Assembly (NCBI GenBank): GCA_976551045.1
Contig: CDPCPM010000430.1
Span: 62,001-126,000 of the forward strand
Source: Glaucostegus cemiculus
Taxonomy: Eukaryota
Reading direction: 5' to 3'
DNA: 64,000 nt
In this document: positions 13,501 to 49,522 of the stretch, piece after piece
How positions within the stretch are numbered: the first letter of the stretch is position 1
Layout: every line of letters begins with the position of its first letter
The notes under the pieces: model-generated
Database searches by the model: none
What the model was told of the DNA's origin: nothing
What the model saw: the letters and a program-made list of their open reading frames with translations, nothing else
Made by a program: the position numbers and the translations under genes

Positions 13501-13504
13501 TTGG

Positions 13505-15528
13505 TTATGGGAAGAAGTAGGATAGACTGGGCTTGTTTTCCTTGGAGCAAAGGAAACTGAGGGAAGACCTGATAGAATATATATTATAAGAAGCAATGAT
13601 AACATTGTCAAAATCTCTTCTCCATGGTAAGAATATCAAAAGCAAGAGGGCATTTGTTTAAAGTGAGAGATTGTATGGAATCCAGGGAGAGTAGGCGGGC
13701 TAATTAAATATACAGTGGGTTTGATGGGCAGATTAGAGGAGGATGGTGGAAGTTTGTTTCTTGGACTGGAGGCCGGTGACTAGTCGTGGGCCTCGGGTCG
13801 GTGCTTTGTTGTTTGTCATCTGTATCAACAATTTGGTTAAGAATGTACAAGGCATGCTTAGTGAGTTTGCCGATGACACTGAAATACGTGGCATTGTGAA
13901 CAGTGAAGAAGGGTATCAAAATTACAGGGGAATCTTGATCAGTTGAGTAAGTGGACCGTGGAATGGCAAATGGAGTTTAATTCAGATGTGCGATGTGTTG
14001 CATTTTGGAAAGTCAGATCAAGGTTGGATTTTCACAGAGAATGGCAGGGCCCTGGAGAGTGTTGTAGAACAGAGGGACCTTGGATTTCAAGTACCGGTTC
14101 CCTGAAAGTGGAGTTGCAGGTAGACAAGGTGGTGAAGAAGGCTTTTGGCACTCTGGCCTTCATTAGTCAGGGCATTGAGTATAAATTTGAAAGATCATGG
14201 TATGGTTGTACAAGACACTGGTGAGGCTGCACTTGGAGCATTGTGTTCAGTTTTGATCACCTTGCTAAAGGAAAGATGTTATTAAACTGGAAGTAATGCA
14301 GAAAAGATTTACTAGGATGTTGCCAGGACTTGAGGGACTGAGTTATAATGAGAGGTTGGAGTGTAGGAGACTGAGAGGTGATCTTATAGACGTGTATAAA
14401 GTCATGAGGGGCATAGACAGGGTGAATACACACAGTCTTTTTCCCAGGGTTGGGGAATCGAGAACTGGAGGGCATAGGTATAAGGTGACAGGGGAGAGAT
14501 GGAGAGATTTAATAGGAACCTGAGGGGCAACTTTTTTTCACATGGGGGATGGTAAGTACATGGAATGAGTTGCCACAGGAAGTGGTTTAGGCAGGTACAA
14601 TAACAACTTTTAAAAGTCATTTGTACAGGTTTAGAAGGATGTGAGCCAAACACTGGCAAATGGCAACTAGCTTTGATAGGCAGCTTGGTCGGCAAGCACC
14701 AGTTGGGCCGAAAGGCCTATTTCCCGAATCAGAATCAGTTTTATTGTCACAACCATATACATACATAGTATGCATAGGAGCGAGATACCGTCCTCCTCAG
14801 GTGCTCGTCCCATAAAAAAAGAATAACATAACAACCAACAGAGAGACACATACACACTTGGCAGAATACACAGTACAGAACATTACACATTAGAAGCTAT
14901 GGAGATTGAAATTGAATTATTACGCAGATTAAATTAAAAGTGGCCAGTAAATAAATAAATAGTTATTAAAGTGAACGGGCTGGTGTCGGCATTTAAAGTG
15001 CTGGTGCATTTCTGTACACCTAGCATCTCTTAGTGTTAACAAAGGAAGATGGAGGGATGAGTGAGTTTGCAGTTCTGATGGCTTGCAGAAAGAAACTATT
15101 GTTCAGCCTGGACGTTCTTGCCCTGATACATTTAAGCCTCCTCCCCGATGGCAAAATTGTGAAGAGGTGGTGGGAGGGGTGAGAAGGGTCGGCCATTATG
15201 CTTTTGGTCTTCCTCACACAACGGTCTTTGTATATGTCTGCGAGGGATGGAAGCGAGACATATTTCCAATATGTATGACTCTGAGTGGTAAAAGTATTAA
15301 AAGGGGTTTGAAGACTAAGTCTTTTTACACAGAGAGTGGTTATTTGGAACATGCTGGCAGAGGAGGTGGTGGAATCAGATACAGTTTACTATGTTTAGGA
15401 GGCCTTTAAACACAAATAAGCAAGGCATAGAAGCATACTGTCCTAGCAAATGGGTTTAGTGCAGATGGGTAAAAAGGTCAGTATTGGCAGGAGGCCCTGT
15501 TTCTGTGCTGTACAACTCTGTGACTCTA
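13505..15528 (+). mobile_element. Nested cluster: CR1 3' end (13505-13670 and 15283-15528) split by a younger CR1 (about 13670-14725) and a minus-strand Rex1 3' end
   Basis: CR1 ORFs 13743, 13943 and 14296 (EFADDT, RFTRMLPGL); the gtttaaagtgagag...gtaaaag consensus resumes at about 15283. Confidence 0.8.
14726..15282 (-). mobile_element. Rex1/Babar LINE 3' end
   Basis: ORF 15020..15352 DPSHPSHHLFTILPSGRRLKCIRARTSRLNNSFF; tail (gattct)n. Confidence 0.85.
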
Positions 15529-16129
15529 ATTGCCGGGTAGGTGCCAATGTTTTAACTCTACAGGGACACCTTGACTAGAGGCACAGCTTGTTCTGGAGTA
15601 CAGGTCTTTGGGATGTTATCTAGTCCCATAGACTTTGCTCTCTCCAGTGCTTTTAGCCATTTCATGATAGTGCATGAAACAAAATTACTTTACTGGAGAC
15701 ATGCTCCTGTGATGGGAGGATCTCAAAGATGGAGAAAACCAAGTTGGATCATCTATTTGGCATTTCTGGCTGAACATGTTTGTGAAATACTTCAGCCATT
15801 TCTTTAGCACTCATTCAGGATGGAGATGTTCTTGGAACCACCACCTCCCATGAACAGTTTAGTTGTCCAACATCATTCATGACCAGATGTTTTGTATATA
15901 AGTCAAGACTTGGATATAGGAAATGTAAGCAGAAATTTATGAGAAAACCTGAGAGAGGTATTCAAATAATGCCTTTGGTAAGGGAATTGGTACTCAGTAG
16001 TTATAGATTTAATATGGTTGGCAAAAATAAATTGAACAACAAATTAGGAGAAATCTTTTCATCTAGACAGTTGTTGAGAATTGGAACTCATTACTGGAAG
16101 CGATGGAATCAAATTCTATTGTAACTACT

Positions 16130-16720
16130 TTGTCAGAAGACTAAGGAAATTCGGTAGGTCCCTGTTGACCCATATAGATGCACTATAGAAACCTTCCTAT
16201 CTGAATGCATCACAGCTTAGTATGGCAACTGCTTTGCCCAGGGCAGCAAGGAATTACAGAGAGTTGTAGACATAGCTTAGCACATCACAGAAACCAGCTT
16301 CCCCTCCGTGGACTCTGCCTACACTTCCCACTACCTTGGAAAAGCAGCCAATGTAATGAAAGACCCCACCTGCCCCGGTCATTCTATCTCTTCCCCGCTT
16401 CCATTGGAAAGAAGATACAAAAGATTGAAAACCAGGCTCAAGGATATTTTCTGTCCCGCTTTTATAAGACTCTTGAATGGACCACTTCTATAGTAAAGTT
16501 GAAATTTTGATGACAATCTACCTCATTGTGGCCCTTGCACCTTATTGTCTGTCTGTGCTGCCTTTCTCTGTAACACTTTATTCTGGATTCTGCTATTGCT
16601 TTTCCTTTTGTAATGCCTCATTGTACTGATGTCTTGAAATGATCTCTATGGATGGCATGCAGAACAAAGTTTATTACTGTATCTCACTACATGTGACAAT
16701 AATAAACCAATTACCAACTT
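16130..16720 (+). mobile_element. Rex1/Babar LINE 3' fragment
   Basis: ORF 16308 KDPTCPGH...RRYKRLKTRLKDIF; tail gtgacaataataaaccaatt. Confidence 0.8.
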
Positions 16721-16959
16721 TTAAGAGAATTAGATGTGCACAGGAAGAGGATTAATTTGCATGGTCGTGGGAAAAGGTTGGTGCATTGGTCCAAATTAGA
16801 CCGCTTTTTTAAATAGCTAGCACAGGTGTAATGGCTTCTGTGCTATGTTGAGAATGATGTTTTATGATTGGTATTTGACATTTTTGAAGCCCAAGTTAGA
16901 AAAGTTGTCTCTCTCATGATTCTACTGTTGATATTTTCCCAACCGGAATAGCTAAATAT

Positions 16960-19900
16960 GATAATAGATAAAGAGGGCCCTACAAGGGAGAGGGCAAAGG
17001 TCAACCTACTCTTAGGTAATAGAGTGGGGCAGGTGACTGAAGTGACAGTGGGGGACCACTTTGGGACTAGTGACCATAGTTCTATTAGTTTTAAAATAGT
17101 TCTGGAAAGGGACAGAACTAATCCACAGGTTCAAGTTCTAAGTCTACCAGACAACCTGGTCCAGCCTACCAGACAACCTGGACCCATTGCAATTCGTCTA
17201 TTGGCGAAACAGGTCTACAGCGGATGCTATCTCCCTGGCCCTACACTCAGCTCTGGAGCATCTGGACAGTAAAGACACAAACGTTAGACTATTGTTTATT
17301 GACTACAGCTCTGCCTTCAATACAATAGTTCCAACCAAGCTTGTCACCAAACTCCGACACCTAGGCCTCAACACCTCCCTCTGTAACTGGATCCTTGATT
17401 TTCTAACAAACAGACCGCAGCAATACCTCCGGAACGATTATTCTCAACACTGGTGCCCCACAAGGCTGTGTCCTCAGCCCTCTACTCCCTATACACTCAT
17501 GACTGTGTGGCCAAATTCTGCTCTAACTCCACCTACAAGTTTGCAGATGATACCACCGTTGTAGGCCGTATCTCAAACAGTGATGAGTCGGAGTACAGGA
17601 AGGAGATATAGAGCTTAGTGGAATGGTGCCATGACAACAACCTTTCCCTCAATGTCAACAAAAAAGCTGGTCATTGACTTCAGGAAAGGGGTTGGTGTAC
17701 ATGCACCCATCTAGAGCTGAGGTCGAGAGGGTTGAGAGCTTCAAGTTCCTGGGTGTTAACATCACCAACAGCCTGTCCTGGTCAAATCATGTAGATGCCA
17801 CGGCCAAGAAAGCTCACCAGCACCTCTACTTCCTCAGGAGGCTAAAGAAATTTGGTTTGTCCACTTTAACTCTCACCAACTTTTACCGATGCACCATAGA
17901 AAGCATCCTATCTGGATGTATCATGGCTTGGTACAGAAACTGCTCTGCCCGTGACCGCAAGAAGCTGCAGAATGTTGTGGACACAGCCCAGTGCATCATG
18001 GACTCCAGCCTCCCCTCCTTGGACTCTGTCTTAACCTCTCGTTGTCTTGGTGTAGCAGCCAGTATAATCAAAGACCCTACCCACCCAGGACATCCTCTTC
18101 CATCAGGTAGAAGATACAGGTGCCTGAGGGCATGTACCACCAGATTTAAGGACAGCTTCTACCCCACTGTGATGAGACTATTGAATGGTTCCCTTATACA
18201 GTGAGATGGACTATGACCTCACAATCTGCCTTGTGTGACCTCACAATCTGCACCTTATTTCACTGCAGCTGTCCTGTTATTGTTTTTACCTGTACTACAT
18301 CAATGCACTTTGTACTAGCTTGGTGTAACTGCACTGTGTAATGAATTGACCTGTACAATCAGTTTGTAAGACAAGCTTTTCATTGTACCTTGGTACAAGT
18401 GACAATAATAAACCAATATCAAGAAATTGGGGCATGACAAATTTGGACAGTATGAGACAGGAGCTTGCAAAGGTTGATTGGAGTAGGTTGTTTGCCGGCA
18501 AAGGGATCACAGGCAAGTGGGAGGCTTTTAAAGGTGAGATAGTGAGAGCTCAAGTCTGTATGTTCCTATTAGATTGAAGGGCAAGGCTGGTAGGAGTAGG
18601 GAACCCTGGATGACGAGGGATATTCAGGCCCTTGCCAGGAAAAAGTAGGCGTAAGTCAGGTACAGGCAAATCCCTGGAGGAGTATAGAGCATGCAGGAGT
18701 GTACTCAAGGAAATTAGAAGGGCAAAAAGGGGGGCATGAGATAGCTTTGCTAGGGAAGATTAAGGAAAATCCAAAAAGATTTTATATTAAGGGAAAAAGT
18801 AACTAGAGAAAAAATAGGGCCCCTCAAAGATCACAAGGGACATCTTTGAGTGGAGAGCTGCAGGAGATGCACAAGGTCCTTAATAAATATTTCTCATCTG
18901 TGTTTACTGTGGAGAAAGACACAAAGACTTAAGAATTAGGAAAAATAAATGGGGAGGTCTTAGGGATTGTCCGCATTAGAGTAGAGAAGGAGCTGGATGT
19001 CTTAAGAGGTATGAAGGTATACACATCTCCAGGGCCTGAGCAGGTATATCCAAGAACGCTGTGGGAGGCTAGAGAAGAAATTGTGGGAGCCCTGGCTGAG
19101 ATAATTGCATCATCATTAGCCACAGGTGAAATACCAGTAGACTGGAGGGTAGCAAATATTGTGCCTTTATATAAGAAGGGTGGCTAAGAAAAACCTGGGA
19201 ACTTATTGGTGAGGATTCTGACGGACAAGATATACGTCCATCTGGAAAGACGGGTTGATTAAGGATAGTCGGCATGGCTTTGTGCACAGGAGATAATGTT
19301 TTATGAACTTGAGATTTTTGATGATGTGACCAAGAAAGCTGATGAAGGCAGGGAGGTAGACATGGTTTATATGGACTTCAGAAAGGCCTTTGATAAGGTT
19401 CCAGATGGTAGGCTGCTCTGGAAGGTTAGATTGCATGAAATCCAGGGAAAGCTGGCTAAATGGATACACCGTAGGCTTGATGATAGAAAGCAGAGGCTGA
19501 TGGTGGAAGGTTGTTTCTTGGACTGAAGGCTCTAACTAGCGGTGTGCCTCAGGGGTTGGTGCTGGACCCATTGTTGTTTGTCATCTATATGAATAATTTG
19601 GATAAGAATGTACAAGGCATGGTTAGTAAGTCTGCCAATGACATTAAAATAAGTGGTATAGTGGACAATGAAGAAGGTTATCAAAACTTACAGGGGAGCT
19701 TGATCAGCTGAGTAAGTGGGCCAAGGCATGGCAAATGGAGTTTAATTCGGATAAGTGTGAGGTGTTGCATTTTGGAAAGTCAGATGCAGATAGGACTTTC
19801 ACAGTGAACAGCAAGGCCCTGGGGACTGTTGTAGAACAAAGGGACCTTGGAGTACAAGTACGTGGTTTCCTGAAAGTGGAGTCACAGGTAGACAGGGTGG

Positions 19901-20528
19901 TGAAGAAGGCTTTTGGCACGCTGGCCTTTATAAGTCAGGATACTGGGGACAAATGTTGGGAGGTCTTGGTGTGGTTGTACAGGACGCTGGTGAGAACACA
20001 CTTGGAGTATTGTGTTCAGTTTTGGTTGCCCTGCTGGAGGAAAGATGTTATTAAACTTGAAAGGGTGCAGAAAAAATTTACAAGGATCTTGCCAGGACTT
20101 GAGAGACTGAGTTATAGGAAGAGGTTGGACAGGTTAGGACTTCATTCCATAGAGCTTAAGAAACTGAGAGGTGATCTTGCAGAGGTGTATAACATCATGT
20201 GGGGCATAGATAGGGTGAATGCACTCAGTCTTTTTCCCAGGGTTGGAGAATCAAGAACTAGTGGGCATAGGTTTAAGGTGAGAGGGGAGAGATTTAATAG
20301 GAACTTGAGGGGCAACTTTTTTTTTACTCAAAGGGTGGTATGTGGAAGGAGCTGCCAGAGGAGCAGGTACAATAACAACTTTTAAAAGACAATTGGATAG
20401 CTCCATGGATTGGAAAGGTTAGAAAGTTATGGGCCAAATGCTAGCAAATGGGACTAGCTTGGATGGGGCATCTTGGTCGGCACGGACCATTTGGGCTGCA
20501 GGGCGTGTATCCGTGCTGTGTAACTCTT
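16960..20528 (+). mobile_element. CR1 LINE, about 2.3 kb excluding the Rex1 insert, frameshifted
   Basis: ORFs 16958 (GTSDH, EN end), 18383, 19296, 19511 and 19735 are consecutive CR1 ORF2 pieces. Confidence 0.92.
17141..18423 (+). mobile_element. Rex1/Babar LINE (RT to 3' tail) inserted into the CR1
   Basis: [46 protein letters not shown] and FYRCTIESIL are Rex1 RT motifs. Confidence 0.9.
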
Positions 20529-20619
20529 TGAAAATCTTCTATTTCTTTAGATGAACTCAGGTATTCATTGAATCATGTACACATGTTATCAGACTTGTTA
20601 TAACAATAGAAAATAAACT

Positions 20620-20625
20620 TTTATT
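20620..20625 (-). terminator. Candidate polyA signal of the kelch gene
   Basis: Minus-strand AATAAA about 500 nt past the stop, at the end of a repeat-free stretch just before a CR1. Confidence 0.5.
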
Positions 20626-21121
20626 TGTTAAAATGTAGAGCATTTATGCTTTGGATTTAATAACATGCTGATCCACCACAGGTAATGTTCCAGGTGACAG
20701 ATTTCGTAATGTAGTTTGTTGTCATTTAGTTTCATTCTTTTTGGGAAGAAGTACTGTCTTGTGTAAATTGCCAGATGATGAGTTTACTATAGAACTGCAT
20801 ATGTGGTTGCAATTCTTTTCCCAGCAACTCTTGGTTAACGTAATTAATACAGTCTGCGTCATAGTATAAAATAATCAGCTTGAAGGACCAGTTAACATCT
20901 CATTGCAGTCAGTGATCATTTTTGCAAGAGACTTTTTCAAAAACAGCATGATTTTCAGGAAATGCCTTTTAACGAGGTAAATTCAATACATATTTAGCCA
21001 TTCCACAAATGTTCAATGACCTAATGTCAATTTGATTGTATTTTAACATTTTTACCCTTGCCATACAATTTCATTTCTGAATTACATTCATATGTTCCCA
21101 TATTGTAAGCATAATACCAGA

Positions 21122-21487
21122 CTAATCAGTTACAAAAAGATTGAGAGTGGAAGTCTTTTTTGTCCCAAGAAGAGGATGGACACACATCTCACGTTTTAAC
21201 TTGTGTAAAATCTGCCCAGAGAGTTTAACTGTGCATGCAACATGATCCATCAGCGGCAGAGGTAATGCACCTGCTCTCTCCCATTTTCTGGCTTCTGGAT
21301 CATAAATAAAAATGCTGTCCTTTTTGGCCATTTGACACAGAGAACCCCCACCGGTGATGTAGAGTTTGGAATTGTGTACAGAAGTGCTAAATTGACAGCA
21401 GTCAAAGGGCGATACCTTAAGTGTTGTCCACTGATCAACTGCTGGGATGTAATATTCAGTTTCATTTACATGAAGCCATTCATTTGA
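21122..21487 (-). CDS. Nested kelch-like gene, last coding exon
   Basis: ttttcag|TCA AAT GAA...GAT TAG; SNEWLHVNETEYYIPAVDQW...KLYITGGG...IYDPEARKW...LNLFVTD*. Confidence 0.92.
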   Translation of the reverse strand, partial: SNEWLHVNETEYYIPAVDQWTTLKVSPFDCCQFSTSVHNSKLYITGGGSLCQMAKKDSIFIYDPEARKWERAGALPLPLMDHVACTVKLSGQILHKLKREMCVHPLLGTKKTSTLNLFVTD

Positions 21488-22029
21488 CTGAAAAGAAATG
21501 AATGACATAGTTAAGCAGTACAAAAAAATAACGTCACTACATTATTTAATTATAATCAGCACAATACTTTCTACTCCTCTCACTGTATAAAGTGGTGCAT
21601 TCAGTTCCTATGGATTTTTTTATTAGGGAATGCTGGTATGTTTAAGTGCTTTAATGAGCCATTCTTTGAAAATGAAAAGTATTTTACACAACATTCTCAG
21701 GAAATTAGGTTGGGAGATAGTTTTGGTTATCTAGGTTTGAATCCAGCTTGGAGAGAGAATTCTTTTAAAATTTCTTTGAAATTTAGATCTCTAGTCTGTT
21801 TTATCTGTAGTTCACAAAACTAATTTTTGTGTCTGCGCTCTGTTCACAATGACCATCTTGAGCTGTCGGGTGAACCCATTTCAGCTGTCCTCCCCTTTCC
21901 CACACCGACCTGTCTGTTCTCGGCCTCCTCCTCTGCCAGGGTGAGGCCAAACGCAAACAAGAAGAGCAGCTCCTCCTATCCCACCTAGGTAGTCAACAAC
22001 CCAGTAGCCTGCCCCACCTGGCTCCATGT

Positions 22030-22265
22030 GTGCATCAACCTTTCCTCTCCTGGATCCACCTGCCACTTGCCAGCTCCTGCCTCATCCCTCCCCTTCACCT
22101 CTTTATACTGGCTATCTCTTTAATACTCTCAGTCCTGATGCAAGGTTTCAACCTGAAACATCAACTATCCCTTTGCAACCACAGATGCTGCCTGATCCGC
22201 TGATTTCCTCCAGCAGCTTGTTTTTGGTTCCAGATCCCTGCATCTGGAGTCTCTTGAGTCTCCAG
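22030..22265 (+). mobile_element. Penelope-like terminal repeat with hammerhead motif
   Basis: tatactggctatct...agtcctgatgcaaggtttcaacctgaaacatcaact...cacagatgctgcctga. Confidence 0.75.
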
Positions 22266-22399
22266 ATTAACTTCTGTGTTCATTCATGTCACCAGACTTT
22301 GTTCTGTTTACCAACAAAATGTATCTCATGTTTTCACATTTAGCTAAGCTGAGGCAAAAGAGTAGCATTATCTGACATTATGATAACCTATATCTAAGT

Positions 22400-23725
22400 T
22401 TGGAAACTTTAGACAAGTAAGCCTAACATCTGTGGTAGGTAAGTTACTAGAGGCAATTCTGAGGGATAACATATATATAAGCATTTGGGAAGTCAGGGGT
22501 TGATTAGGAATAGTCAGCAGGGCTTTGTGCATGGGAGATCATGTCTCAGGAATTTGGGTTTTGTGAAGAAATAACGAGGAAGGTCGGTGAGGACAGGGTG
22601 GTAGACGTTAGTCTGCGTGGACTTCAGTAAGGCCTTTGATAAGGTTCCACATGGCAGGCTGCTCAGGAAAGTTAGATTGGATGGGATCCAGGTTTGATGG
22701 TAGGAAGCAGAGGGTGATGGGAAGGTTGTTTTTTGTCTGGAGGCCTGTGACTCGTGATGTTCCCCAGGGTGCAGTGCTAGGCCCATTACTACTTGTTATC
22801 TATATCAACGATTTGGATGAGAATGTACAAGACATGGTTAGTAAGTTTGCAGATGACACGAGAATAGGTGATATCATTGACAGTGAAGATGTTCATCAGG
22901 ATTTACGGAGGGATCTTGATCAGCTGGGTAAGTGAGCTGAGGAATGGCAAATGAAGTTTAATTTAGATAAATGCAAGGTGTTGCATTTTGGGGAGATAAA
23001 TCGGTAGGATATTCATAGTGAACAGTAGGGCCCTGGGGAGTGTTGTAGAAGAGGGACCTGGGAGTACAAGTACATGGTTCCCTGAAAGTGGTGTCACAGG
23101 TAGACAGGGTGGTGAAGAAGGCTTTTGTCATGCTGGCCTTCATCAGTCAGGGCACTGAGGATGTTATGTTGGGATGTTATGTTGTAGTTGTACAAGACGT
23201 TGGTGAGGCTGCATTGTGTTCAGTTTTGGTTGCCATGCTATAGGAAAGATGCCACTAAGCTGGAAAGAGTGCAGAGGAGATTTACAAGGATGTTGCCTGG
23301 ACCTGAGGGACTGGGGTATGGAGAGAGGTTGAGCAGGTTGGGACTTCATTGATTGGAGGGTAGGAGAATGAGGGATGATCTTATAGTGGTGTGTAAAATC
23401 ATGAGGGACATAAAGAGGCTGAACCTGCAGTTTTTTTTCCCCCAGGGCTGGGGAATCAAGAACTAGAGGGCATAGGTTTAAGGTGATAGGGGAGAGATTT
23501 AATAGGAACCTAAGAGGCAACTTTTTCACCTAAAAGGTGGTCAGTATATGGAACAAGCTGCCAGAGGAAGTGGTAGATGAGGGGAAAATTAACAACAGTT
23601 ACCTGGATAGGAAAGGTTTAGAGGGATATGGGCCAAACATTGGAAATGGGACTGCTTAAATGGGACTTTTGGTTGGCATGGACCAGTTGGGCTGAAGGGT
23701 GAGTTTCCGAGCTGTATGATTCTCT
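22400..23725 (+). mobile_element. CR1 LINE
   Basis: ORF 22636 VPQGAVLGPLL...KFADDT; CR1 3' tail. Confidence 0.9.
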
Positions 23726-24607
23726 AAGTCTGTGGATGTATCAGGTTCTGCCGGTTTGTAATTCATTTATTATGGTGGGAAACAAAAATCTGTGGACTTG
23801 GGATTGTATAACTTTAATATTCACAAGTTATAGTGTAACGTCGGCTTTGTCAAATAACTTTGAAAATTCTGTGATACTTTTCAAGGCAACATTAGAACCC
23901 AGTAAATCATTCTCTTACATTGTGTAAACTATGAGCTGAAACAGTTAATTGAAAACTTTTACTCAAAATGTTATATAAATGCACATTATTATTGCACTCT
24001 GAAGGTGGTGCAGCATTGATCAGAGTTGGAGAATGACTAGGGCAGAGAAATTATAAAGACAATAGTAATAAGTATTATAACCAAAGTGACTTGATCTCTA
24101 AGTGTGGTTGAGGTTTAACATAAGTATGTTAGCAAGGGAGTATTTCATTGTAGAAATCCAAGGAACCCTGAAGGTGGAAACACAGGTAGATAAGGTAGTG
24201 AAGGAGGGAATATTTGCCCTCCACAGTCAGGGCATAGAATATGAGAGCAGAGAGGCTATGGTATTCCTAAAACATTGATTAGAACACATTTAGAATACTG
24301 CGTACAGTTCTGGTTGCCCCAGAATTGTCATTGAGCTGAAGAGGGCGCAGAGGAGGTTCACTACGAAGTTGCCTGAATGGAGCACTCAGTTATGAGGAGA
24401 AACAGGATAGGCTGCATTCTGCCTTTATTTGAAGGCTTAGAGTTCAATGCTCCTTGAGGTCAATGCTCCTTGAGATCAATATTTAACATGCTTTAATGTG
24501 CCGTCCAAGTCCTCAGTGCTTTCCATCAAACAAACTGGTGTTATTTAAACAGATTGAGAAAAGTTTGTACTGAAAGTAACAACATGAAAATTTAAAATAT
24601 ATCTTAC

Positions 24608-24768
24608 TGAGTTCAAAGCTCTTCCCCCTACACAAAATATTTTGTCTCCAATGGTAGCCATTCCATGGTCACACCGGGCAAATGTCATGGGTTGGTTAAT
24701 GATCCATCGCTGCAGTCTTGGGATATAACTGTACAGATCATTCAGAGCTCTTCCTGCTGAGAATCCAC
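24608..24768 (-). CDS. Nested kelch-like gene, coding exon 3
   Basis: catcag|GT GGA...AAC TCA|gtaaga; GGFSAGRALNDLYSYIPRLQRW...KIFCVGGRALNS; 161 bp, phase 1 to 0. Confidence 0.92.
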
Positions 24769-24939
24769 CTGATGGACATGACAAAATGGCTGAATATCCA
24801 GATTTTTTAATAGAAGAACATATGTAACTCTTGCAAAGTGCAACATTAACTCAAAGGCTGAATGTCAGAAAAATGGATGGGAAATGTATCATTTTAACAT
24901 TTAAAAACAGACAAACCCAGAGGACAGGAGGAATCCGAT

Positions 24940-25172
24940 GGGGGTTCTTTCAGACCCTCTCTCACTGCTCCCCCTCTGTGATTTTTTTTTATTCTTTGCA
25001 CCCCTCCTCACCTGGATCCACCTATTGCCTGCCAGCTCCTGCCACCTTCTTATACTGGCTATTTCTTCCCCCCCCCCCACTTCCTTCCATAGATGCTGCC
25101 TGACCCACTGAGTTCCACCAGCATTTTATGTGTTGCTCCATATTCCAGCACCTGCAGTCTCTTGTGTCTCCA
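24940..25172 (+). mobile_element. Penelope-like terminal repeat, hammerhead segment deleted
   Basis: Same flanking motifs as 22030-22265 with the ctgatg...gaaa core missing. Confidence 0.65.
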
Positions 25173-26637
25173 TATACCTCAAAGAGACTTCGCAGGAGAG
25201 TAGCAAAATGGAGACGTGGAACCAACTAGGCGTTTAGATCTAAACTTTGGGGGAGGGGATTTCCACACCAATTCAAGAAGGCAGCAGACAGTAGAACTAG
25301 GGACAGGCAATGACTATTGGTCTTGCAGATGGTATTCAAGTTCTTGAAATGAATAAACAGAGCTTTAAGGTGCCTAGTAGATAATGTTACTGGAACTTGG
25401 GATGCATTCCTATTTTTTATGGTTCTGCCTTAGACACAGAGTAGGTACTGTTGCCATTCTTCCACTAGAGGCTCCTTCTCCTGCCTTGCCAAATCTCACC
25501 ATCCACTGTCATCCATCAGTACCTAATATTTGTGCTTGTATACAAAGAGGTGGGTTTTAGGAATGAACTGATGAGTAGCACTTGAAGGCAAGACTAGGAG
25601 AGAAGCACTGGGGACTGAGAAGAGCAGTGGAGACACAAGTAGGATTGTTACAAAGGGAAGTGGTAACACAAAGACAAGCAACAGGAAGACTGTATTTTCA
25701 AATATGTGCAACGCCAAAAGAGACCAAGAAATAACTACCTGCACATCTATAACACTTTTTCAACATTGTACGTTCCTCAAGTTCCTTTACAGCAACACTC
25801 AAATAATTCCGCACCACCAATGATGAAATATTCGAAAAATGAAAAATTGAAATTTTGGAGTTAGAGAGGCAGATAAGTCTAGTGAAGGGATTCCAAAGCT
25901 TTGAACTTGAACTGGTGAAGCCACAACCACTAATGGTGGGACAAGGAAATCAAAGGTACTTGAGACTATTAGAGACACATTTAAGTTCTCAATGGAATAG
26001 AGGTTAGGGAAGGGAATTTAACACAAGCTAAGAATTTTAAACTTGTGATATTACAGGACCCTATATAGGTAAAATTATTGTGTGCTTTCTAAACATGGCC
26101 GTTAAACCTAAAGGTACGTCAAGGTTGTGGATTGATAACTGCAGTGAAATTCCTGGTTTTGGAGTTTGAAGATTTCAACACAACACGCTCACAGAAAGAT
26201 ATTAGCCTACCACAGAATTTTTTTCTTTTTAAGTTGATACAATCAATTGCATTTTTGCCACTTAACAATTATGTCTAAGTGACAATACTATCTGAAGTTG
26301 GCTTCCTTTAGATTATGTTCTACTGTCTTTATTCTTTCCTCTATTTCTCCCCATTCAAAGGTGCCTCAGGCAGTGCACTTGCAATGACAGGCCACCCGCA
26401 CAGCACCTCCATGTGTATTGATTGTGTTAGGAGGTGTGCAAAAGTGCCCTTCTTTCTGGAACACCTAAATATACTTAACATATGTTACTGCAGCCTGTTG
26501 CATTTGTGGGATGTATGGTGAGGCAACATATTTCCTGAGGTACAAACCTACATAACTTTTAACCTTGAGATGGATAATCTTGAAGTGCGACTGTTCTAAA
26601 AATTGTATGTAATTTTTCTCCCATCCTTTGTCCTTAC

Positions 26638-26890
26638 CTGAAATATAGAGAATGCCTTTGTGCACAGCCCCAGTGTGGTCCGCCACTGCCACAGGGAAGG
26701 GTGTTACAAACTCCCATTTGTTCTTTTCACATTTGTATTCCTCTACTGTATTAGTGAGGTTCCCTAGCAGTGTGCCCCCTGCCACAGAAATAATGCGGTC
26801 TAAAATTGTATCCACGTGAAACCGCGTGCGTCTTTCCAGCATGCCAGCAACCTGAATCCATGAGTTATTTCGTGGATCAAACCGAAAAAC
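26638..26890 (-). CDS. Nested kelch-like gene, coding exon 2
   Basis: ttacccag|GTT TTT CGG...TCA G|gtaagg; VFRFDPRNNSWIQVAGMLERRTRFHV...GILYISG; 253 bp, phase 0 to 1. Confidence 0.92.
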
Positions 26891-27019
26891 CTGGGTAAAG
26901 AAAAGACCTAAATATGACTAATACATTAACTTAACTGATGTACCAAAAGTTGATTTTTCTGTGAATGTAATAAATTTGATCCTTAGATACTCAGAAAATT
27001 AACCTGATAATTTTTACAC

Positions 27020-27990
27020 ATCAAAAGTAATTGGCTAGATCTGCTTGGTAGACTGATTAGAAAGTGAAAACCCATGAGATCCAAGAAAATGTGATGTTGA
27101 ATCCAAAAATGGCTAGGTGGTGGCCTTATAGTGACTGCAGTTGGAATCCTAAAACCCCACTGGTATAGTCCCGTGGTTTTCCTATGCAGATCAATGTTTG
27201 AACTTGAAGATAATAACCATGATAAAGAAGCTTGTGTGTGACACATAAATTGGACAGTGTTGAAAAAGAAAGTTGAAGGCAGCAGGAAATAACAACTGGT
27301 CAGGTGAACAAAAATGAGGCAGGTTGAATTCAATCTTGAAAAATTGTGAAGCAACGTATTGGGGAAGGCAAGGAAGACAGCAGAATGCAATGTATGATAG
27401 AAATCTTAGATCCTATTTCTGATGCATGCTCACAGATACCTTTATTGGTAAAGACATAGAACATAAGAGCAAGGAGGTAACATTAGAACTGTGCAAAATA
27501 GGCTGCAGTTCAGATAGGGTGTCCAGATCAGTGTCAATTAGTGCCACAATGTGATTGCACTGGTGAGTGAAAGGGGAATTTACAGGGATGCTGCTCGGTC
27601 TGGAGAATTCTAATAGAGGAGAGAATGGCTACACTGAGTTGTTTTAATCTTGGGAACTGAAGAGGCCGACAGAAGTTATAATCTAGGTGTACAACATTAA
27701 AGAAGCAGCAGGCAGGAAACTGTTACACTTAGCGTAAAAAGGAAAAGGATTAGAGGTGAGGAAAATATTTCCACCTAACAGTGGTAAGGATGAGGAAATC
27801 AGTTTGAAAGGTTGATCAAGGCAGAAACCTCATCACATTTTAAAAAATACTTGGGTGAGCACCATAAGTGTCATACTTTATAGATTAACTTACTAAGAGC
27901 TGGGATTCCCCTAAGTAATTTGTTTTTGGCCTGTGTGAATAGGGCAGGTGTTGATATAATGCGCTGAAAGCTGCCTTCTGTGTCATAAAT
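27020..27990 (+). mobile_element. Old CR1 relic
   Basis: Degenerate CR1 RT and 3' sequence. Confidence 0.55.
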
Positions 27991-28993
27991 TTCAATGAGC
28001 ACTATTAATATTGTGTGCAATTTATTGTAGTATATGCTTCTTGGTTCAGTTTTAATTAGTCTCTTTATTCCCTTTTGAGCTGGTTTGCTTACTACAAATT
28101 TGTGTGTGTATTCCCCCTCCCTTTGCCAGTTTTCTTTTTTCCTCTTCTACAGGCATGAATCCATTGATTAGATCAATGGTCACCCTTTGGTCTCTTCCAC
28201 AGTTGTACTTTATTTATATGTGAACCTCAGTAGGTTGTTTGAACACTGCTATAGGCTAACCATCATCTCACTAGGTGTTCACACATGTCTTTCATAGCAG
28301 TATTTGCAGAACAGCAAGCAAGTACGAACCTTAGCTGAATTGGTTTTTCCTTTCCCTAACTGGGGTTGTTTCCTTGACCGTACAAACCTGCAAAACAATC
28401 AGCAGAAATTTCCTCTGTATTTTTCGCCATTCCTGCCTGTCTCAAACATTACGCTGCATTGCATAACTATTCACAGACCTGAGAGAGGGCTAACTCGAAC
28501 CTCGAATATCTGCCAGTATTAGATTTTAAACAAGATGTTAAGTGGCAGCATATATGAACTTGATCATTTTTAGAGTGCCCTTCATTACCTCTCTGTAGAT
28601 GATTTAGCTGATCGACTAATTTTTTTTTGTGGAAGTGACAGGGAGCTCCTGTATCCTCATGTTCTTTGGCTGGTAGGTTAGTACACCAACCAGGGTTTAA
28701 CAGTGTTAGGGGTTTTGAGTTTAATCCTTTATAAAATTAACTTCCAATTTGGTCCTTCAACCTTTGGCAAAATTTTATAAACACTAATATTGTAACAATA
28801 TTTAATAGTCTGAAAAATGTTAAGTTATAATCTATTTGTGCATCACATTTGCCACCTAATTAAAAAGATCTCCAGATAAGTTATTAATGGCAATGAGGCA
28901 ATCTTACATCTTCAATGATAATCCATGTGGTTCATAACATTGCTGGGAAAGAACATTGTGCATGCTTGGAAAGCTGGTTTAAATTGATGCTGT

Positions 28994-29231
28994 TGTAGCA
29001 GCCAGCAGGGTGCGACTTAGAAGAACATGAGGACACGGAGACTCGATCGAGCACGCTTTTAATAACTCACCAGAAGCCACGCATATCCCGAACTACAAAA
29101 AAACATGGCCGGCGGAAGTGACGTCATGCTCCCGCCAGAAGTCCCGCCTTCCGGCACTATCGCGGGGAAACTCGAACGTTTCCCTGCGACGGCCGACGGC
29201 GTTTCAGACCCTGGTAGCGTGAGTCGCTACA
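28994..29231 (-). mobile_element. Solo LTR (Gypsy-like), 238 bp
   Basis: TGTAGC...GCTACA termini, 4-bp TSD ctgt (28990-93 and 29232-35), minus-strand ATTAAA, CpG-rich. Confidence 0.8.
29113..29126 (+). promoter_or_regulatory. Overlapping ETS-CRE composite motif CGGAAGTGACGTCA
   Basis: Exact ETS core overlapping a full palindromic CRE; YY1-like aaacatggcc at 29101-29110; GC-box-like cccgcc twice nearby. Confidence 0.55.
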
Positions 29232-30308
29232 CTGTAATTGTAAAGCTTTCATGTTAGCAAACTGATGAACATCACAAAGTGGTCTCTTGTGCAGTGACTT
29301 TATTTTCTTTGGTATCTGTAGTATGTGTTTTTGGATTCCAGATAATTTTGTCTTTCAGTTGTACATTAATGACAGTTTAAAACTAAAGACAAATCAGTAC
29401 CAACATTAGTAAAATACTAAACTCTAGCATTGTAGAGGATGGTATCAGATTACAAGCTGGCTCCTCATTGAAAGTGGCTGTACTCTTGAAAGTGTGGTAA
29501 CATCTTCTGTACCGCAAAACTGTCCATTATTGTTCAGCATGGATAAAATCCAGGCTTTATTAACTGTGCTGAGTCTGCTGATCTTAGCTAAATTGTTACT
29601 AGGTGTGACTGCCAAAGAACCTTTAGGCTACTCTGCATCACAACCTCACTTACCAGCTGGGGCCATCTGTGAATGGGGTGAGCACAAAATTCTTTCAGCT
29701 TTGGTAACCACCAGGGTTAAACCCTGCTGTCACTCGTTCTATTTGTATGACATTTAACTGAGATTAACAAAAACAGAAATTTGTGAATTGTGCAAGTAGG
29801 GCGAACTATGAATTTTGAAGATGGGGCTAAAAAGATTATAAAATAATTTCAGACTGGAGAGACAAGATGGCAGAAGGTTTTTGCACTGGAAATAGCAAAG
29901 AAATTTGAAACTGAATGATTGGACAGTGCAGTGCTGGAACAGTTTATTGACATGAAAAAAGCTAGAGTAAAGTGATAAATGAGTGGGGAAAGTATGGCTT
30001 GGGATATGCATTTTGGGTTTAGCTAAGGTGGAGTTTAGACAAAGACGTGGATGAGGATCTTCTGGGTGATAGAGGGGAGTCAAAGGAAAGATGGCTGGTC
30101 GGATAAACATAAGCTGCTTTGTTCTTGGTCGAGATGCAGGGTTTAAAGATAAAGGGCACAGCTTAATTTAAGGGAATAGTCAGGGAAAGGAGGAAATGAG
30201 TAGCCGAAGGTTCAGATCATGCCCTGAATTGCAGTCAGTGAATAACTATTAGTCTTATAAAATATCAAAAATAAAAATTCAGCAATACTGCAGATCGTAG
30301 GGACTTAC

Positions 30309-31355
30309 CTTATTTGATGGCTGATTTCCAGTAGCATTGAAGCTGTTTTGTCCACCTATTACAAATACAAAATTATTCACAACTGCTACACCATGATTGT
30401 ACAAAGGAGTATGCATTTCTCCCAGTTTTCTCCAACAGCTGCCAGTCTCATCTGCAACCCAAACATCACTGCAAGTACTGTTGTTTGTTGTGCGGCCTCC
30501 GAGGATTAACATATTTTCAGTGTTTGACCGAATCCGCGAATGTTCAAATGCTAGCATAGGCTGAGCATATAATCGAGAATGGTAACTGAATGCTTCTTGG
30601 AGGTACTTGTAGCATTGGGAATCAGTTTTCATAACTGAGATTTCTTGAACGTATTCCTGCAAATCAACAGCTGAAATAAGGCAGAATCGAATTCTTTTCA
30701 TTACGTGTGCAGCATCCTTCAGTCTGTCCCTATCGTGATGCAGCCACATAGATGCACAATTGAATAGTTCCAGTTCACTGTACTCTTGCATTTCATCATT
30801 CTCCAGAACTTTGCACAGTGTTGCTTTATCCAGCTCAACAAGGTAATGATGATTTGCTAATATATATTTGTGGTATTGTCCCAGATACAAAAATGCTTTT
30901 TGTTTTAACTCTTCAGGTCCAAATTTTTGAATTATTTTAAAAATATCCAAACAATTTCCCCTACCGAGATGTTCCTCGAGGAACCTAAAACATAGAGTAA
31001 TTGCATCCCCGATCAACAAACTCTCGGCTGCCTTTAATATATCTTCAATTGTATCTACAGTAAGATCTAGTCTGTTTGAGTAAATGAAGTCTAGCACGTG
31101 CTTCAGCCCTCTTGCACTGACATTATTTAACTTAATAGCATTGTTTTGTTGGCTTTCTAATAATAACTTGCAATAACTACTCGCAGATGCTAGAATAACT
31201 TTGTGAGCAGGAAAGGTGGCTCCTTCAGCCTCCAGCGTAACATCACACAAAATGTTTCTCATGCGCAAATTGAAGAGCCCCTCAAGTAACCTGCCAGGAT
31301 AGGTGTCTGAAACACGTGAATGGTGCTCCACATTGTTGTGCAAACTATTTGACAT
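30309..31355 (-). CDS. Nested kelch-like gene, coding exon 1 (BTB, BACK, first kelch repeats); KLHL9/13/26-group-like
   Basis: 349 codons from ATG (A at -3): LCDVTLEAEGATFPAHKVILASASSYC (BTB), ELELFNCASMWLHHD (BACK), LILGGR and FVIGGQ (kelch); donor AAG|gtaagt. Confidence 0.92.
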
Positions 31356-32655
31356 TTTTTCTAAGGTAGAAGAGATCTCTGCTACAAAGTTCTGTTTTCT
31401 TTGCTGTATGAAACTCCTGCTTGATAGGAAAAAAAATTATATCATCGTTGCTATAGTCTACTAATTCATTTAAAAGTCCCAGTCCTAAAGATGAGACATC
31501 TGTAGTGATCTCTAACTGCAGTCACTGAGGTCTGCCACACTTGCGTGTGTGAAGATTTTCTGATAATAGTGATGAGGATGCCAGTTACAAGTGAAATTCA
31601 TTAGCTATTAGATAGTTCTGAGATACTTCAAGAATGTCTACTTTCAGTTTATCTGTTACATTGATATGTTAAATCATTGTATTAATGCACAGTCTTAACT
31701 TACAACTATCCAGCAGCTGGCTCTTGAAGCTTTGCAATCAAATAGAAGGTATTCTTTGTTGCTTATTGTTTTCTGCTTCATTCATCTGGCATTTTGGAGA
31801 TGTTTGACCAGTAAACTTGCAGCATCATTCAAATACTTGGTCCTTTTTGCGTCCAGTGAATTTTCAGCATGCAGATGTACTACTTATTAACATTAAATGT
31901 CCTTGGTTGTTCTCTGCTACATTGGCTCAACGTTTAGACAAACTGAATCGTTTAGAGTACTGATCACAATGGGATTTTTTTTTTTGCAGCTTAGTACCTC
32001 TTAGTGTTTTATCTTAGTCAAGTATTTAAAATGTCAGCAGTACTTGTCTGGACTTGTCTGCAGTCAAAATGCAATTGGTGTTCAGATACACAATGTCACA
32101 GTGTGTGACCAAAACAATGTGTGTTCAATATTCCAAAGGTCATTTTACAAGTGCCAAAAATATTTTTGTTTCCTTCACTAAACAAGTAAATTTGGATCAT
32201 ATTAAAAGAATCCTTGCTGTTTAGAGTTTGCAGATTGAAATATTGTAAGATTGAATGCAAATTTCCCCAAAGTTGTACCTGTGTTTGGATTTCTGCCAAT
32301 CCTTTGCTTGTTTGAATTTCTCAATTAGGACTTAGCTTATTTCCATTTTTTAAAAATATCATTAAGCAGTAGAAAGCACCAGGTCATTTTAACTTTGCCA
32401 AAGGCTTCAATATTACCATAATCTAATATGAAAACTGAAGCTTAATAATGTTCTGTAACAGCCTAATGGCAACTTTTAAAGTAGTTCCCTGCCTCCAACT
32501 TAATCCTGTCCTTTTGTTTTATACATTGCTTTGAGGTAAGTGTGAAATTTTTGTTGAAAGTTGGTTATTTTCCTTAACATCTTCATTCTATGCCTTTCAA
32601 ACCTTACACCCATGGCAACAATTGCTCTTTACTTCCTCTGTTCCAAGGAGGAACA

Positions 32656-34011
32656 GGTATCGTGGTAGGTAAGCTGTTGGAAAGGATTTTGAGGGACAGG
32701 ATCTATGAGCACTTGGAGAGTCATGGACTGATTAGGGACAGTCAGCATGGCTTTGTGAAGGGAAGATCTTGCCTCACGAGCCTGATAAGAGTTCTTTGAG
32801 GAGGTGACGAGGAAGCTTGATGAGGGCAGGGCGGTGGATGTAGTGTATATGGATTTTAGTAAGGCGTTCGATAAGGTTCCTCATGACAGGCTGCTTCAGA
32901 AGATCAGAGGTCGAGGTATCCAGGGGAGGTTGGCTGTGTGGATAAGAAATTGGCTTTCCTGTAGAAGGCAGAGGGTTGTGGTGGAGGGAGTGCCCTCGGA
33001 TTGGAGGGCTGTGACTAGTGGAGTCCCGCAGAGATCAGTTCTGGGGCCTCTACTCTTTGTTATATTCATAGATGATTTGGATGAAGGAGTGGAGGGATGG
33101 GTTGGTAAGTTTGCAGATGACACCAAGATCGGTGGTGTGGTAGATAGTGTGGAGGACTGTAGGAGCTTACAGGGGGATATTGATAGGATGCAGAACTGGG
33201 CTGACAGGTGGCAGATGGAGTTTAATCCGGAGAAGTGTGAGGTGGTGCACTTTGGGAGGACAAACTCCAGGACAGAGTATAAGGTAAATGGCAAGGTTCT
33301 TGGCAGTGTAGAGGAGCAGAGGGATCTGGGGGTTCATATCCACAGGTCACTCAAAGTTGCCTCGCAGGTGGATAGGGCTGTTAAGAAGGCTTATGGGATG
33401 TTGGCTTTTATAAATAGAGGGATTGAGTTCAAGAGCAGAGAGGTGATGATGCTGCTTTACAAAACTCTAGTTAGGCCACACTTGGAATATTGTGTTCAGT
33501 TCTGGTCGCCGCATTATAGGAAGGATGTGGAGGCGTTGGAGAGGGTGCAGAGGCGATTTACCAGGATGATGCCTGGATTGGAGGGTATGGAATATAGAGA
33601 GAGGCTGAAGGTGCTAGGGCTCTACTCATTAGAGAGGAGGAGGATGAGAGGGGACTTGATAGAGGTGTTTAAGATATTGAGAGGAATAGATAGAGTTAAT
33701 AGTCAGCGCCTCTTTCCCAGAGCGCAGATGCTCAAGACGAGAGGGCATGCCTTTAAGATAATTGGTGGAAAGTATAGGGGAGATGTCAGAGGGAAGTTTT
33801 TCACCCAGAGAGTGGTTGGTGCATGGAATGCACTGCCTGGGGTGGTAGTGGAGGCAGATACGTTGGACAGGTTTAAGAGATTGTTAGATAAGCACATGGA
33901 AGAATGTGGAATAGTAAGATATGAGGGTGGAAAGAGTTAGTTTGGGAGTTGTTTGTAGGATGGCACAGCTTGATGGGCCGAAGGGCCTGTTCTGTGCTGT
34001 ATTGTTCTATT
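32656..34011 (+). mobile_element. Young 5'-truncated CR1 LINE inserted into an older minus-strand CR1 (about 32450-34380)
   Basis: 378-aa uninterrupted ORF 32804..33940 with KFADDTK and an intact C-terminus; gaaca on both flanks. Confidence 0.95.
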
Positions 34012-34459
34012 GAGAACAACATTTTCCTGTTTACAAACTAAAATTCCTCATCCTTGGAATCACTCTAGGAAGAACATTGGACACAATACTTCAGCTGAAG
34101 CCAAAATGTTACTTTATGAAGGTTCTTCATGACTCCCTTACTCCTGCACGGTATGCTTCTGTGTACATATCCCAGCATCTCATTTGATGCATTTATCTAC
34201 TTCCTCAACTTGCTTTGCCACTTTCAATGATAATGCATGCATACCCCCAGATCTCTTTAGTTAATATTGCCTCTCCTCATTCCTTCTAAAGAAACGTGAC
34301 ACTCAACTTTTAAACTTAATCTGCCGTTTGTCCACCCACCCAAATGGCTTATCTGTTTTCTCATAAGCCTACTATTTACTCTTCAGTGCTTAAAGATTTT
34401 GTTTGTAATACTAGCTCATTTGACTGGTATTTAATTATTTTTTCAATACACTCTAACAG

Positions 34460-34578
34460 GTATGTTTTATAATTCCACGGGGACAAAAAAATGCTTTGAT
34501 ATCTATACTGAGTTTCAACATTGTGCTGATCCGACAGGTTGTGGTTTGGGCTCTGCAAGTCAAGCATGGGATTTCCAG
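34460..34578 (+). CDS. DPP7: DPP7 exon with the CADPTGCG loop
   Basis: aacag|GT ATG...TTC CAG|gtacag; GMFYNSTGTKKCFDIYTEFQHCADPTGCGLGSASQAWDFQ; the CADPTGCG loop distinguishes DPP7 from PRCP. Confidence 0.95.
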
Positions 34579-38079: not shown

Positions 38080-38280
38080 TCAGGTTGTCCATATTGGAAG
38101 AATGTGTGCTTCAGTATTAAAAATATATTTGTCCAGGCTGATTAAGTTAAATTCATCAGAAAAAAGAAGGAAGAAATATTTCAGTGTCTCTCCAAGGAAG
38201 AAGCTCTCCATTTTATCCCGGGGTTCGGGGTTCTCAGAACTCCGCACATTATTAATGGAAGTATAACCTCCTGTGTCAAC
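38080..38280 (-). CDS. MAN1B1: MAN1B1 last coding exon
   Basis: cacag|GTT GAC...TGA; GGYTSINNV...[21 protein letters not shown]...[13 protein letters not shown]. Confidence 0.95.
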
Positions 38281-38439
38281 CTGTGTAAAGTTAAAACAAC
38301 CCAACTGAAGGTGCCTTTAGAAAGTTCTTACAATAGCTCAAGAAATTGACATGCAATTATAAACCATTAAACTGTTTAAGACTAAGTGACAACTTTGCAA
38401 ATTATAGTCACTTATTTAACATGAGAAGTCTAAGGATAA

Positions 38440-38590
38440 TCTGATTCACTGATACTGGTTGGTGGATTAATTTGCCTGGTTGCCTCTATCATATTTCTAA
38501 CAATGTCATGGATAATTGATGTCCACCTGAGGAGAGTTGGACCTCAGCTTAATGTGTTAATCAGAAAGTTGCAAAACCATAGCCCAGTTG
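38440..38590 (-). mobile_element. DeuSINE-like relic (similar pieces at about 8380-8500 plus 9369-9500, and about 59990-60140)
   Basis: Reverse strand reads ...ctcaggtggacatcaattatccatgacattgtt, resembling the Deu domain; recognised by eye. Confidence 0.45.
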
Positions 38591-38954
38591 TTGCTGTAAG
38601 CAGCAATGTGATAGAACTCACTCACCTCAGAGAAAGCTGTCCACAAAGACAGACCAGCACTAACAGATGCTTATGGATTTTCCCATTTAACTGTGCCTGC
38701 GTGACCTCCTAACGATGCTGTCATTTCAGGTTGACCAAATGCTAGCGAATTTACTGTGTTAATTCTGGGCCTACATTAATATAGGGTACGCATAAGTCAG
38801 TTCCTTAATAGAAGGAAATGCCAAGCATCCAACCAACAGAGACAGAAGTGGCTGTAGGAAAGGTTGAGCCTTTCTGTTAAGCAATGCAAACAGAGTGCCA
38901 CATTAACTCAATAAAATTCATTTTAAGGCAGGAACAAAATATTAGGCATATGGG

Positions 38955-41509: not shown

Positions 41510-41641
41510 CCGGGTATATTTGTTGAAGTTTTGAAAAATCTCCCAGCCCCAGTCTTGGTATTTCTTGTCATGTGTAAATCTATACATGTAGAAAAGGCTT
41601 TCTATTGTCTCGGGTCTTAACAGGTTGTGTCTGTCTGCAGG
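41510..41641 (-). CDS. MAN1B1: MAN1B1 exon
   Basis: gacag|CCT GCA...CGG|gtaagt; [44 protein letters not shown]. Confidence 0.95.
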
Positions 41642-42735: not shown

Positions 42736-42743
42736 GTACATAC

Positions 42744-49506: not shown

Positions 49507-49522
49507 CAATATGATCATCGAG

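What the first reader, a model, noticed from the sequence alone, without database searches (positions are those of the whole stretch)
21122..31355. Complete, divergent BTB-BACK-Kelch gene nested antisense in a DPP7 intron
Seen: four minus-strand exons (1047, 253, 161 and 366 bp) with GT-AG sites and matching phases join into an uninterrupted ~608-aa protein with BTB, BACK and six kelch repeats, entirely within the DPP7 intron 10927-34459. Known: KLHL proteins are CUL3 ubiquitin-ligase substrate adaptors, and human DPP7 is compact with no such nested gene. Inference: motifs such as VFRFDPRNNSW, HGVAVVNNFVFVIGGQ and LYISGG place it near KLHL9/13/26, but it does not look like a clear orthologue. 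It may be an uncharacterised vertebrate KLHL lineage lost in mammals. The intact frame among decayed repeats implies purifying selection.
Basis: partly seen in the sequence, partly recalled or inferred. Interest (0 to 1): 0.8.

Follow-up and report, generated by a model that had tools for sequence, protein, structure and literature searches.

The report
Unnamed vertebrate kelch gene inside DPP7
An intact four-exon kelch gene sits backwards inside an intron of DPP7; it belongs to an old, misnamed gene lineage found from lampreys to marsupials, likely lost in placental mammals, and it lacks the usual cullin-3 docking motif, so it likely binds partners without directly tagging them for destruction.

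Summary
Observation confirmed: four GT-AG exons give a stop-free 608-aa BTB-BACK-six-kelch protein, antisense inside DPP7 intron 10927-34459 of a cartilaginous fish. It is not KLHL9/13/26: those genes sit elsewhere in the same genome, and orthology with KLHL13 is rejected (p-AU 1e-16). It belongs to a distinct lineage (support 100/99), sister to KLHL34 (100/97), with members in lamprey, sharks, chimaera, coelacanth, non-teleost ray-fins, eels/bonefish, amphibians, reptiles, birds and marsupials. Databases auto-label them 'KLHL9' or 'KLHL13'. 'Lost in mammals' is wrong as written: three marsupials keep it. No placental, zebrafish-type teleost or songbird member appeared in three capped protein searches. 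All three introns are conserved across vertebrates, spliced relatives exist, and an ostrich MAN1B1-kelch read-through model shows the neighbourhood is shared with birds. New point: 0 of 156 family sequences carry the phi-x-E CUL3-docking glutamate, and marsupial copies have lost the 3-box while keeping the propeller. Best reading: a dimeric substrate-binding kelch protein that recruits CUL3 weakly or not at all (about 0.5; untested). The chicken member appears unlabelled in a 2023 supplementary tree; no description was found. New member of a known family; moderate interest.

The parts
30309..31355 (-). Coding exon 1: ATG, BTB, 3-box/BACK, first kelch blade and part of the second; alpha3-beta4 loop lacks phi-x-E
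26638..26890 (-). Coding exon 2 (kelch)
24608..24768 (-). Coding exon 3 (kelch)
   Evidence: its 3' end matches the loose end of a contig from run X1
21122..21487 (-). Coding exon 4 (kelch, C-terminal tail, stop)
31416..31437 (-). Pyrimidine-rich acceptor-like site 61 nt upstream of the ATG; possible upstream exon, not located
   Evidence: inference only
20620..20625 (-). AATAAA about 500 nt after the stop, likely polyA signal
   Evidence: use not shown
10927..34459 (+). Host DPP7 intron (23,533 bp, GT-AG)
10866..10926 (+). DPP7 exon before the host intron
34460..34578 (+). DPP7 exon after the host intron
38080..59254 (-). MAN1B1 coding exons (approximate span seen), tail-to-tail with DPP7 and upstream of the kelch gene on the same strand

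Best explanation
This is an intact, conserved KLHL-family gene of an unnamed vertebrate lineage, likely the sister of KLHL34, whose protein is predicted to dimerise through its BTB domain and to grip a specific partner with its kelch propeller but likely recruits CUL3 weakly or not at all. Shown: gene structure, domains, separate lineage, range from lamprey to marsupials, absence of the phi-x-E glutamate, loss of the 3-box in marsupial models. Inferred: dimerisation and partner binding (from BTB-kelch family knowledge); reduced CUL3 recruitment, so that it would act as a scaffold, sequestering factor or decoy in the manner proposed for KLHL39/IVNS1ABP; loss in placental mammals, most teleosts and perhaps songbirds.
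For: Lineage: careful tree 100/99 for the family and 100/97 for family+KLHL34 (same grouping at 0.957 and 81). The same genome has its own KLHL34, KLHL26, KLHL13 (88% to devil KLHL9/13), KLHL15, KLHL32 and two KLHL31. Forcing the window gene and the chimaera member into gnathostome KLHL13 costs 395 log-likelihood units, p-AU 1e-16. Mechanism: 0 of 156 family rows have Glu at the phi-x-E position, against 58 of 75 non-family BTB-kelch representatives; that loop is the least conserved part of the BTB (top-residue frequency 0.56 against 0.78). In KLHL3, phi buries the most surface against CUL3 and E85A severely disrupts binding (PMC3616122, passages). Marsupial models align over only 9-13 of 32 3-box positions yet over 297 of 297 kelch positions at 47-48% identity. 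87 of 297 kelch columns are at least 95% conserved in 133 rows. Of seven human BTB-kelch proteins shown without the motif in PMC10146909 Fig S3, four (KLHL14, KLHL31, KLHL29, calicin) have no CUL3 interaction listed and IVNS1ABP is noted 'probably not direct E3' in PMC13061254 Table S1K.
Against: Two of those seven motif-less human proteins, gigaxonin and KLHL10, do have CUL3 interactions listed, so the motif is not strictly required. Outside marsupials the 3-box helices are present (32 of 32 positions covered in most rows; helices in the model). Marsupial deletions come from automatic gene models and may mean decay or mis-annotation rather than a function without CUL3. Sister status to KLHL34 fell to SH-aLRT 81 in the 52-row tree, several rows have odd composition, and family+KLHL9/13 as one clade was not rejected (p-AU 0.10). 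No binding or cell data exist. Absence in placentals rests on capped, word-based protein searches and not on genome DNA.
Confidence: 0.5

Rival explanations
1. Same unnamed lineage, but a working CUL3 substrate adaptor that docks without phi-x-E, through the 3-box and a remodelled alpha3-beta4 loop, as gigaxonin does.
For: Gigaxonin and KLHL10 lack the motif at the aligned position yet have CUL3 interactions listed; 3-box helices present in non-marsupial members; full BTB-BACK-kelch layout kept for about 500 million years; best structural match is the CUL3-KLHL22 complex.
Against: The loop is variable in length and sequence rather than conserved in a new form; marsupials drop the 3-box but keep the propeller.
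Confidence: 0.33
2. It reaches CUL3 indirectly, as the CUL3-blind half of a BTB heterodimer with another KLHL (for example KLHL34, 13 or 26), lending its propeller to that ligase or damping it.
For: BTB core stays conserved (34 of 114 columns at 95% or more) even in marsupials (47-50% identity) while CUL3-facing parts vary; BTB heterodimers are known in this superfamily (recalled).
Against: No test here; no partner identified.
Confidence: 0.12
3. It is a fast-evolving duplicate or orthologue of KLHL9/13, as the database names say.
For: Most database records are named kelch-like protein 9 or 13; best BLAST score among ten named references is hagfish KLHL13 (32% identity, 313 bits, against 271 for KLHL34); sister grouping with KLHL9/13 not rejected.
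Against: True KLHL13 and a second KLHL13-like gene lie elsewhere in this genome; Tasmanian devil has both kinds; orthology rejected; different intron positions.
Confidence: 0.04
4. A dead or spurious reading frame.
For: No certain RNA run of this species was available.
Against: 84% identity to sawshark, 62% coelacanth, 55% turtle over the whole length; conserved introns; spliced relatives.
Confidence: 0.01

Closest known systems
KLHL34 (vertebrate kelch-like 34)
   Same: Sister lineage in three trees; BTB-BACK-six kelch; function of both poorly known (curators 'Unclear (T-X-E)').
   Different: Only 28-30% identical; KLHL34 is a single 625-codon frame in this genome and keeps T-x-E; this gene has three introns and no phi-x-E; KLHL34 survives in placentals (shrew row).
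KLHL9/KLHL13
   Same: Same large clade (clade 1 of PMC10146909); source of the automatic names; 32-34% identity.
   Different: Separate genes in the same genomes; M-K-E motif present; far slower evolution (88% ray to devil, against 47-48% in the kelch domain here).
KLHL39/IVNS1ABP, KLHL14, KLHL31, calicin (motif-less BTB-kelch proteins)
   Same: Lack phi-x-E at the aligned position; CUL3 recruitment absent, unclear or indirect in curated data.
   Different: Not its closest relatives by tree (KLHL39 and calicin not in my trees); the likeness is functional only.
Chicken XP_004945797.1 in PMC10146909 Figs S2/S3
   Same: It is a member of this lineage (P0395) and the paper's table shows it without phi-x-E.
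   Different: There it is an unnumbered branch; the section on the tree does not mention it.

Membership tests
KLHL (BTB-BACK-kelch) family | N-terminal BTB domain | tested here: met
   Pfam BTB E 2e-23
KLHL (BTB-BACK-kelch) family | BACK domain | tested here: met
   Pfam BACK E 3e-14; marsupial members have no BACK hit listed
KLHL (BTB-BACK-kelch) family | Six-bladed kelch propeller | tested here: met
   Model of the sawshark orthologue with six four-stranded blades; TM about 0.93 to KEAP1 kelch
CRL3 substrate receptor (canonical) | phi-x-E motif in the BTB alpha3-beta4 loop | tested here: not met
   0 of 156 family rows (1 of 157 not located); 58 of 75 other representatives have it
CRL3 substrate receptor (canonical) | 3-box helices after the BTB | tested here: inconclusive
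   Present in the model and in non-marsupial rows, largely deleted in three marsupials
CRL3 substrate receptor (canonical) | Binds CUL3 and ubiquitinates a substrate | not testable with these tools
KLHL9/13 orthogroup | Groups inside KLHL9/13 and is that gene of its genome | tested here: not met
   p-AU 1e-16; separate KLHL13 at L009
KLHL26 orthogroup | Groups with KLHL26 | tested here: not met
   Separate KLHL26 at L002, 75% to rodent KLHL26, clade 100/100
KLHL34 orthogroup | Groups inside KLHL34 | tested here: not met
   KLHL34 clade 100/100 holds the genome's own L001; this gene is outside it
Other human clade-1 KLHLs (22, 42) and teleost klhl43 | Orthology | not tested
   No such rows were in my trees; KLHL22 is 27% identical to the model; in PMC10146909 the chicken member is listed apart from KLHL22 and KLHL42
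Nested antisense gene | Coding exons inside one host intron on the opposite strand | tested here: met
   conservation of the nesting in other species not testable here

The most novel reading that the evidence does not exclude
An unrecognised pan-vertebrate KLHL orthogroup, at least as old as the lamprey split, sister to KLHL34, that gave up direct CUL3 recruitment early, works as a CUL3-independent binder or decoy, and was then lost repeatedly (placental mammals, most teleosts, probably songbirds), with marsupials caught midway, keeping the propeller but shedding the 3-box.
Probability: 0.3. Interest if true: 0.62.

Novelty: new member of a known kind. Interest (0 to 1): 0.42.

Why it matters
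It adds a missing branch to the vertebrate KLHL inventory and shows that well over a hundred database records named KLHL9 or KLHL13 in sharks, amphibians, reptiles, birds and marsupials are a different gene, which misleads expression and orthology studies. If it is CUL3-blind, it is a natural test of how much phi-x-E and the 3-box matter and of ligase-independent roles for BTB-kelch proteins. Chicken and Xenopus carry it, so it is testable; zebrafish and mouse probably do not, which would explain why it was overlooked. It has no direct human relevance.

Tried and rejected
No RNA holder listed for this stretch; runs X2 and X5 behave as DNA of relatives. The first read-laying over 19500-36500 was swamped by repeats and showed no exon joint among the 15 joints listed of 5386; X1 left exon 2 uncovered, which is no evidence. 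ESM Atlas gave only generic KLHL clusters (32, 26, 14) and no taxon range. An AU test on the 52-row set did not finish and was redone on 25 rows; three own-genome rows were dropped after a script error. The DPP7 test join used a start two bases off and came out of frame; the acceptor found in the same call (10866) fixes the exon. No complex prediction with CUL3 was sent, as no CUL3 protein was on hand; a BTB homodimer job was judged uninformative. Literature searches that found no description of the lineage: 0 papers each; listings, nothing on it; only open-access papers are searched. 'klhl13-like' of zebrafish and Carassius (PMC10179623 supplement passage) was considered; no sequence was seen, and no cyprinid appeared among the 95 of 95 hits, so it is more likely the second KLHL13-type gene (like L008), untested. 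The search of earlier findings returned nothing. A proper dN/dS could not be run for want of orthologous coding DNA.

Full report
1. The observation. Pfam finds BTB and BACK in exon 1 and a kelch repeat in every exon. The flanking DPP7 exons match human DPP2 at chain positions 222-266 and 288-327, with the 61-bp exon 10866-10926 filling the gap, so no DPP7 exon lies inside 10927-34459. MAN1B1 lies to the right on the minus strand, so the kelch gene is downstream of MAN1B1 on its strand and antisense to DPP7. The best protein matches are sharks (80-84%) and the genome's KLHL34 is 82% identical to that of the ray Narcine: a cartilaginous fish.

2. Range. An exon-1 search gave 137 hits, 120 listed (10 without a name): sharks, chimaera, coelacanth, sturgeons, gar, amphibians, reptiles and birds at 48-83% identity, nearly all auto-named kelch-like 9 or 13. 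A profile search of 1.84 billion representatives added a lamprey (Lethenteron), bonefish (Albula) and brushtail possum. A possum query (168 hits among 8000 scored candidates, 120 listed) gave four marsupial rows from three species and then only non-mammals. A bonefish query (95 hits, all listed) gave three teleost rows, all eels or bonefish, four marsupial rows, and no placental. I saw no monotreme, placental, zebrafish-type teleost or songbird name in the three lists (taxonomic placing of names is from my own knowledge). These are capped word-based searches of predicted proteins, with 17 and 48 hits unlisted, so loss is likely but not proven. In PMC10146909's nine-proteome tree (supplement parts 3-4, machine-read figure text) only the chicken member appears, unnumbered; human, mouse, cattle, whale, mole-rat and zebrafish have none, but Xenopus was missed there too, so this is weak support.

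3. Identity. The same genome holds separate KLHL34, KLHL26, KLHL13, a second KLHL13-like gene, KLHL15, KLHL32, two KLHL31 and a gene I read as KLHL36 (that name is recalled) (reference names). A 112-row FastTree, a 52-row quick tree and a 25-row careful tree all make the family one clade including lamprey and marsupials (1.0; 100; 100/99) and join it to KLHL34 (0.957; 81; 100/97). Placing the window gene and the chimaera member inside gnathostome KLHL13 is rejected (p-AU 1e-16); making the whole family sister to KLHL9/13 is 26 log-likelihood units worse but not rejected (p-AU 0.10). KLHL22, KLHL42 and klhl43 were not in the smaller trees; own-genome rows were single-exon pieces.

4. It is a living gene. 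Whole-length identity is 84% to sawshark, 72% chimaera, 62% coelacanth, 56% Xenopus, 55% turtle. Protein models that run into introns stop at the same three places: intron 1 in 12 of 12 rows picked for this check (ray or shark, sturgeon, eel, frog, lizard, bird), intron 2 in 6 of 6, intron 3 in lamprey, bonefish, frog and sturgeon rows. Sturgeon gives full-length 605-608 aa proteins on 2.2-2.7 kb contigs, while a 7.8-kb contig gives exon 1 and exon 4 as separate pieces: spliced transcripts, by inference. In run X1 (kind uncertain: the tool says probably DNA) one contig stops at the exon-4 acceptor with 11 loose letters identical to the end of exon 3, whereas X2 runs through the intron; this is below the tool's 31-letter bar for a bridge, so a hint only. 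Of 19 coding differences to relatives that the tool listed (a small subset), 9 are silent against about 4 expected, crude pN/pS 0.31, p 0.012. An ostrich RefSeq isoform of MAN1B1 splices from its penultimate exon into kelch exon 2, showing the same order and strand in a bird. Whether the gene sits in the same DPP7 intron elsewhere could not be checked; MAN1B1 and DPP7 are neighbours in fish and cats (PMC2121648, PMC13047762, passages).

5. How it likely works. The fold is a standard BTB-BACK-kelch (model of the sawshark orthologue). The propeller carries lineage-specific invariant residues at the blade entries (87 of 297 columns at 95% or more), which points to a conserved partner. The CUL3 side is different. 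The phi-x-E motif, whose glutamate is needed for KLHL3-CUL3 binding (PMC3616122, passages) and which with the 3-box marks CRL3 receptors (PMC13061254, passages; PMC3597819, passages), is absent in 156 of 156 family rows in which the helix was located, against 58 of 75 other representatives that have it. The loop varies freely, and marsupial models also lose most of the 3-box while the BTB and propeller stay at 47-50% identity. Among seven human proteins without the motif, four have no CUL3 interaction listed, IVNS1ABP is judged probably not a direct E3, but gigaxonin and KLHL10 do have CUL3 interactions (PMC13061254 Table S1K rows). I therefore put weak or no direct CUL3 recruitment at 0.5, non-canonical direct docking at 0.33 and heterodimer-mediated access at 0.12. 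None of this is tested by experiment.

6. Novelty. The gene is in the databases under wrong names, and the chicken protein appears unlabelled in one supplementary tree that even tabulates its missing motif, but the paper's section on the tree does not mention it. Nine searches of the open literature found no description of the lineage; subscription journals and bioRxiv supplements were not covered. Nested antisense genes and lineage-lost KLHLs are ordinary kinds of thing (own knowledge). Verdict: a real, unnamed orthogroup, new member of a known family, with a testable oddity; interest 0.42.

Noticed in passing
window 28994-29231: 238-bp TG...CA element with a 4-bp target-site duplication in intron 1 of the kelch gene, like a solo LTR; at least 40 copies at 92-95% identity in the genome (2794 candidates), some in pairs about 4 kb apart. 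It carries an overlapping ETS/CRE-like promoter motif (motif recalled).
   Followed up: partly
P0412 (ostrich); window 41510 and 26890: Ostrich MAN1B1 isoform X2 fuses the mannosidase to kelch exons 2-4; the matching donor and acceptor in this window are both phase 0, so the same read-through would be in frame here. No transcript evidence in this species.
   Followed up: partly
L008 (G000:C143) and L009 (G000:C363): Two KLHL13-type genes in this genome, 64% and 88% identical to devil KLHL9/13; the first may be a retained duplicate without a human counterpart.
   Followed up: partly
L005/L024 (G000:C106) and L006/L028 (G000:C290): Two KLHL31-type genes; one may correspond to klhl43, said to be specific to ray-finned fish (PMC10179623), which would make it older.
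   Followed up: no
L001 (G000:C114): KLHL34 is a single uninterrupted GC-rich frame, 0.75 Mb from KLHL15; being intronless and sister to this intron-bearing gene, it may be an ancient retrocopy (speculation).
   Followed up: no
window 32789-33937: 383-codon open reverse-transcriptase-like (CR1-type, recalled) frame in the same DPP7 intron, between the kelch gene and the next DPP7 exon.
   Followed up: no
window about 35870-36490: X1 contigs from the DPP7 3' end and from a 3-kb minus-strand record meet at 36088/36089, suggesting abutting or overlapping 3' ends of DPP7 and MAN1B1.
   Followed up: no
P0183: A turtle-like protein model joins this gene's BTB-BACK to C2H2 zinc fingers; probably a gene-model artefact.
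   Followed up: no
window 21125-21160: A short C-terminal motif after the propeller is kept in 55 of 132 full-length family rows, from sharks to birds, and is absent in marsupials and lamprey; role unknown.
   Followed up: partly
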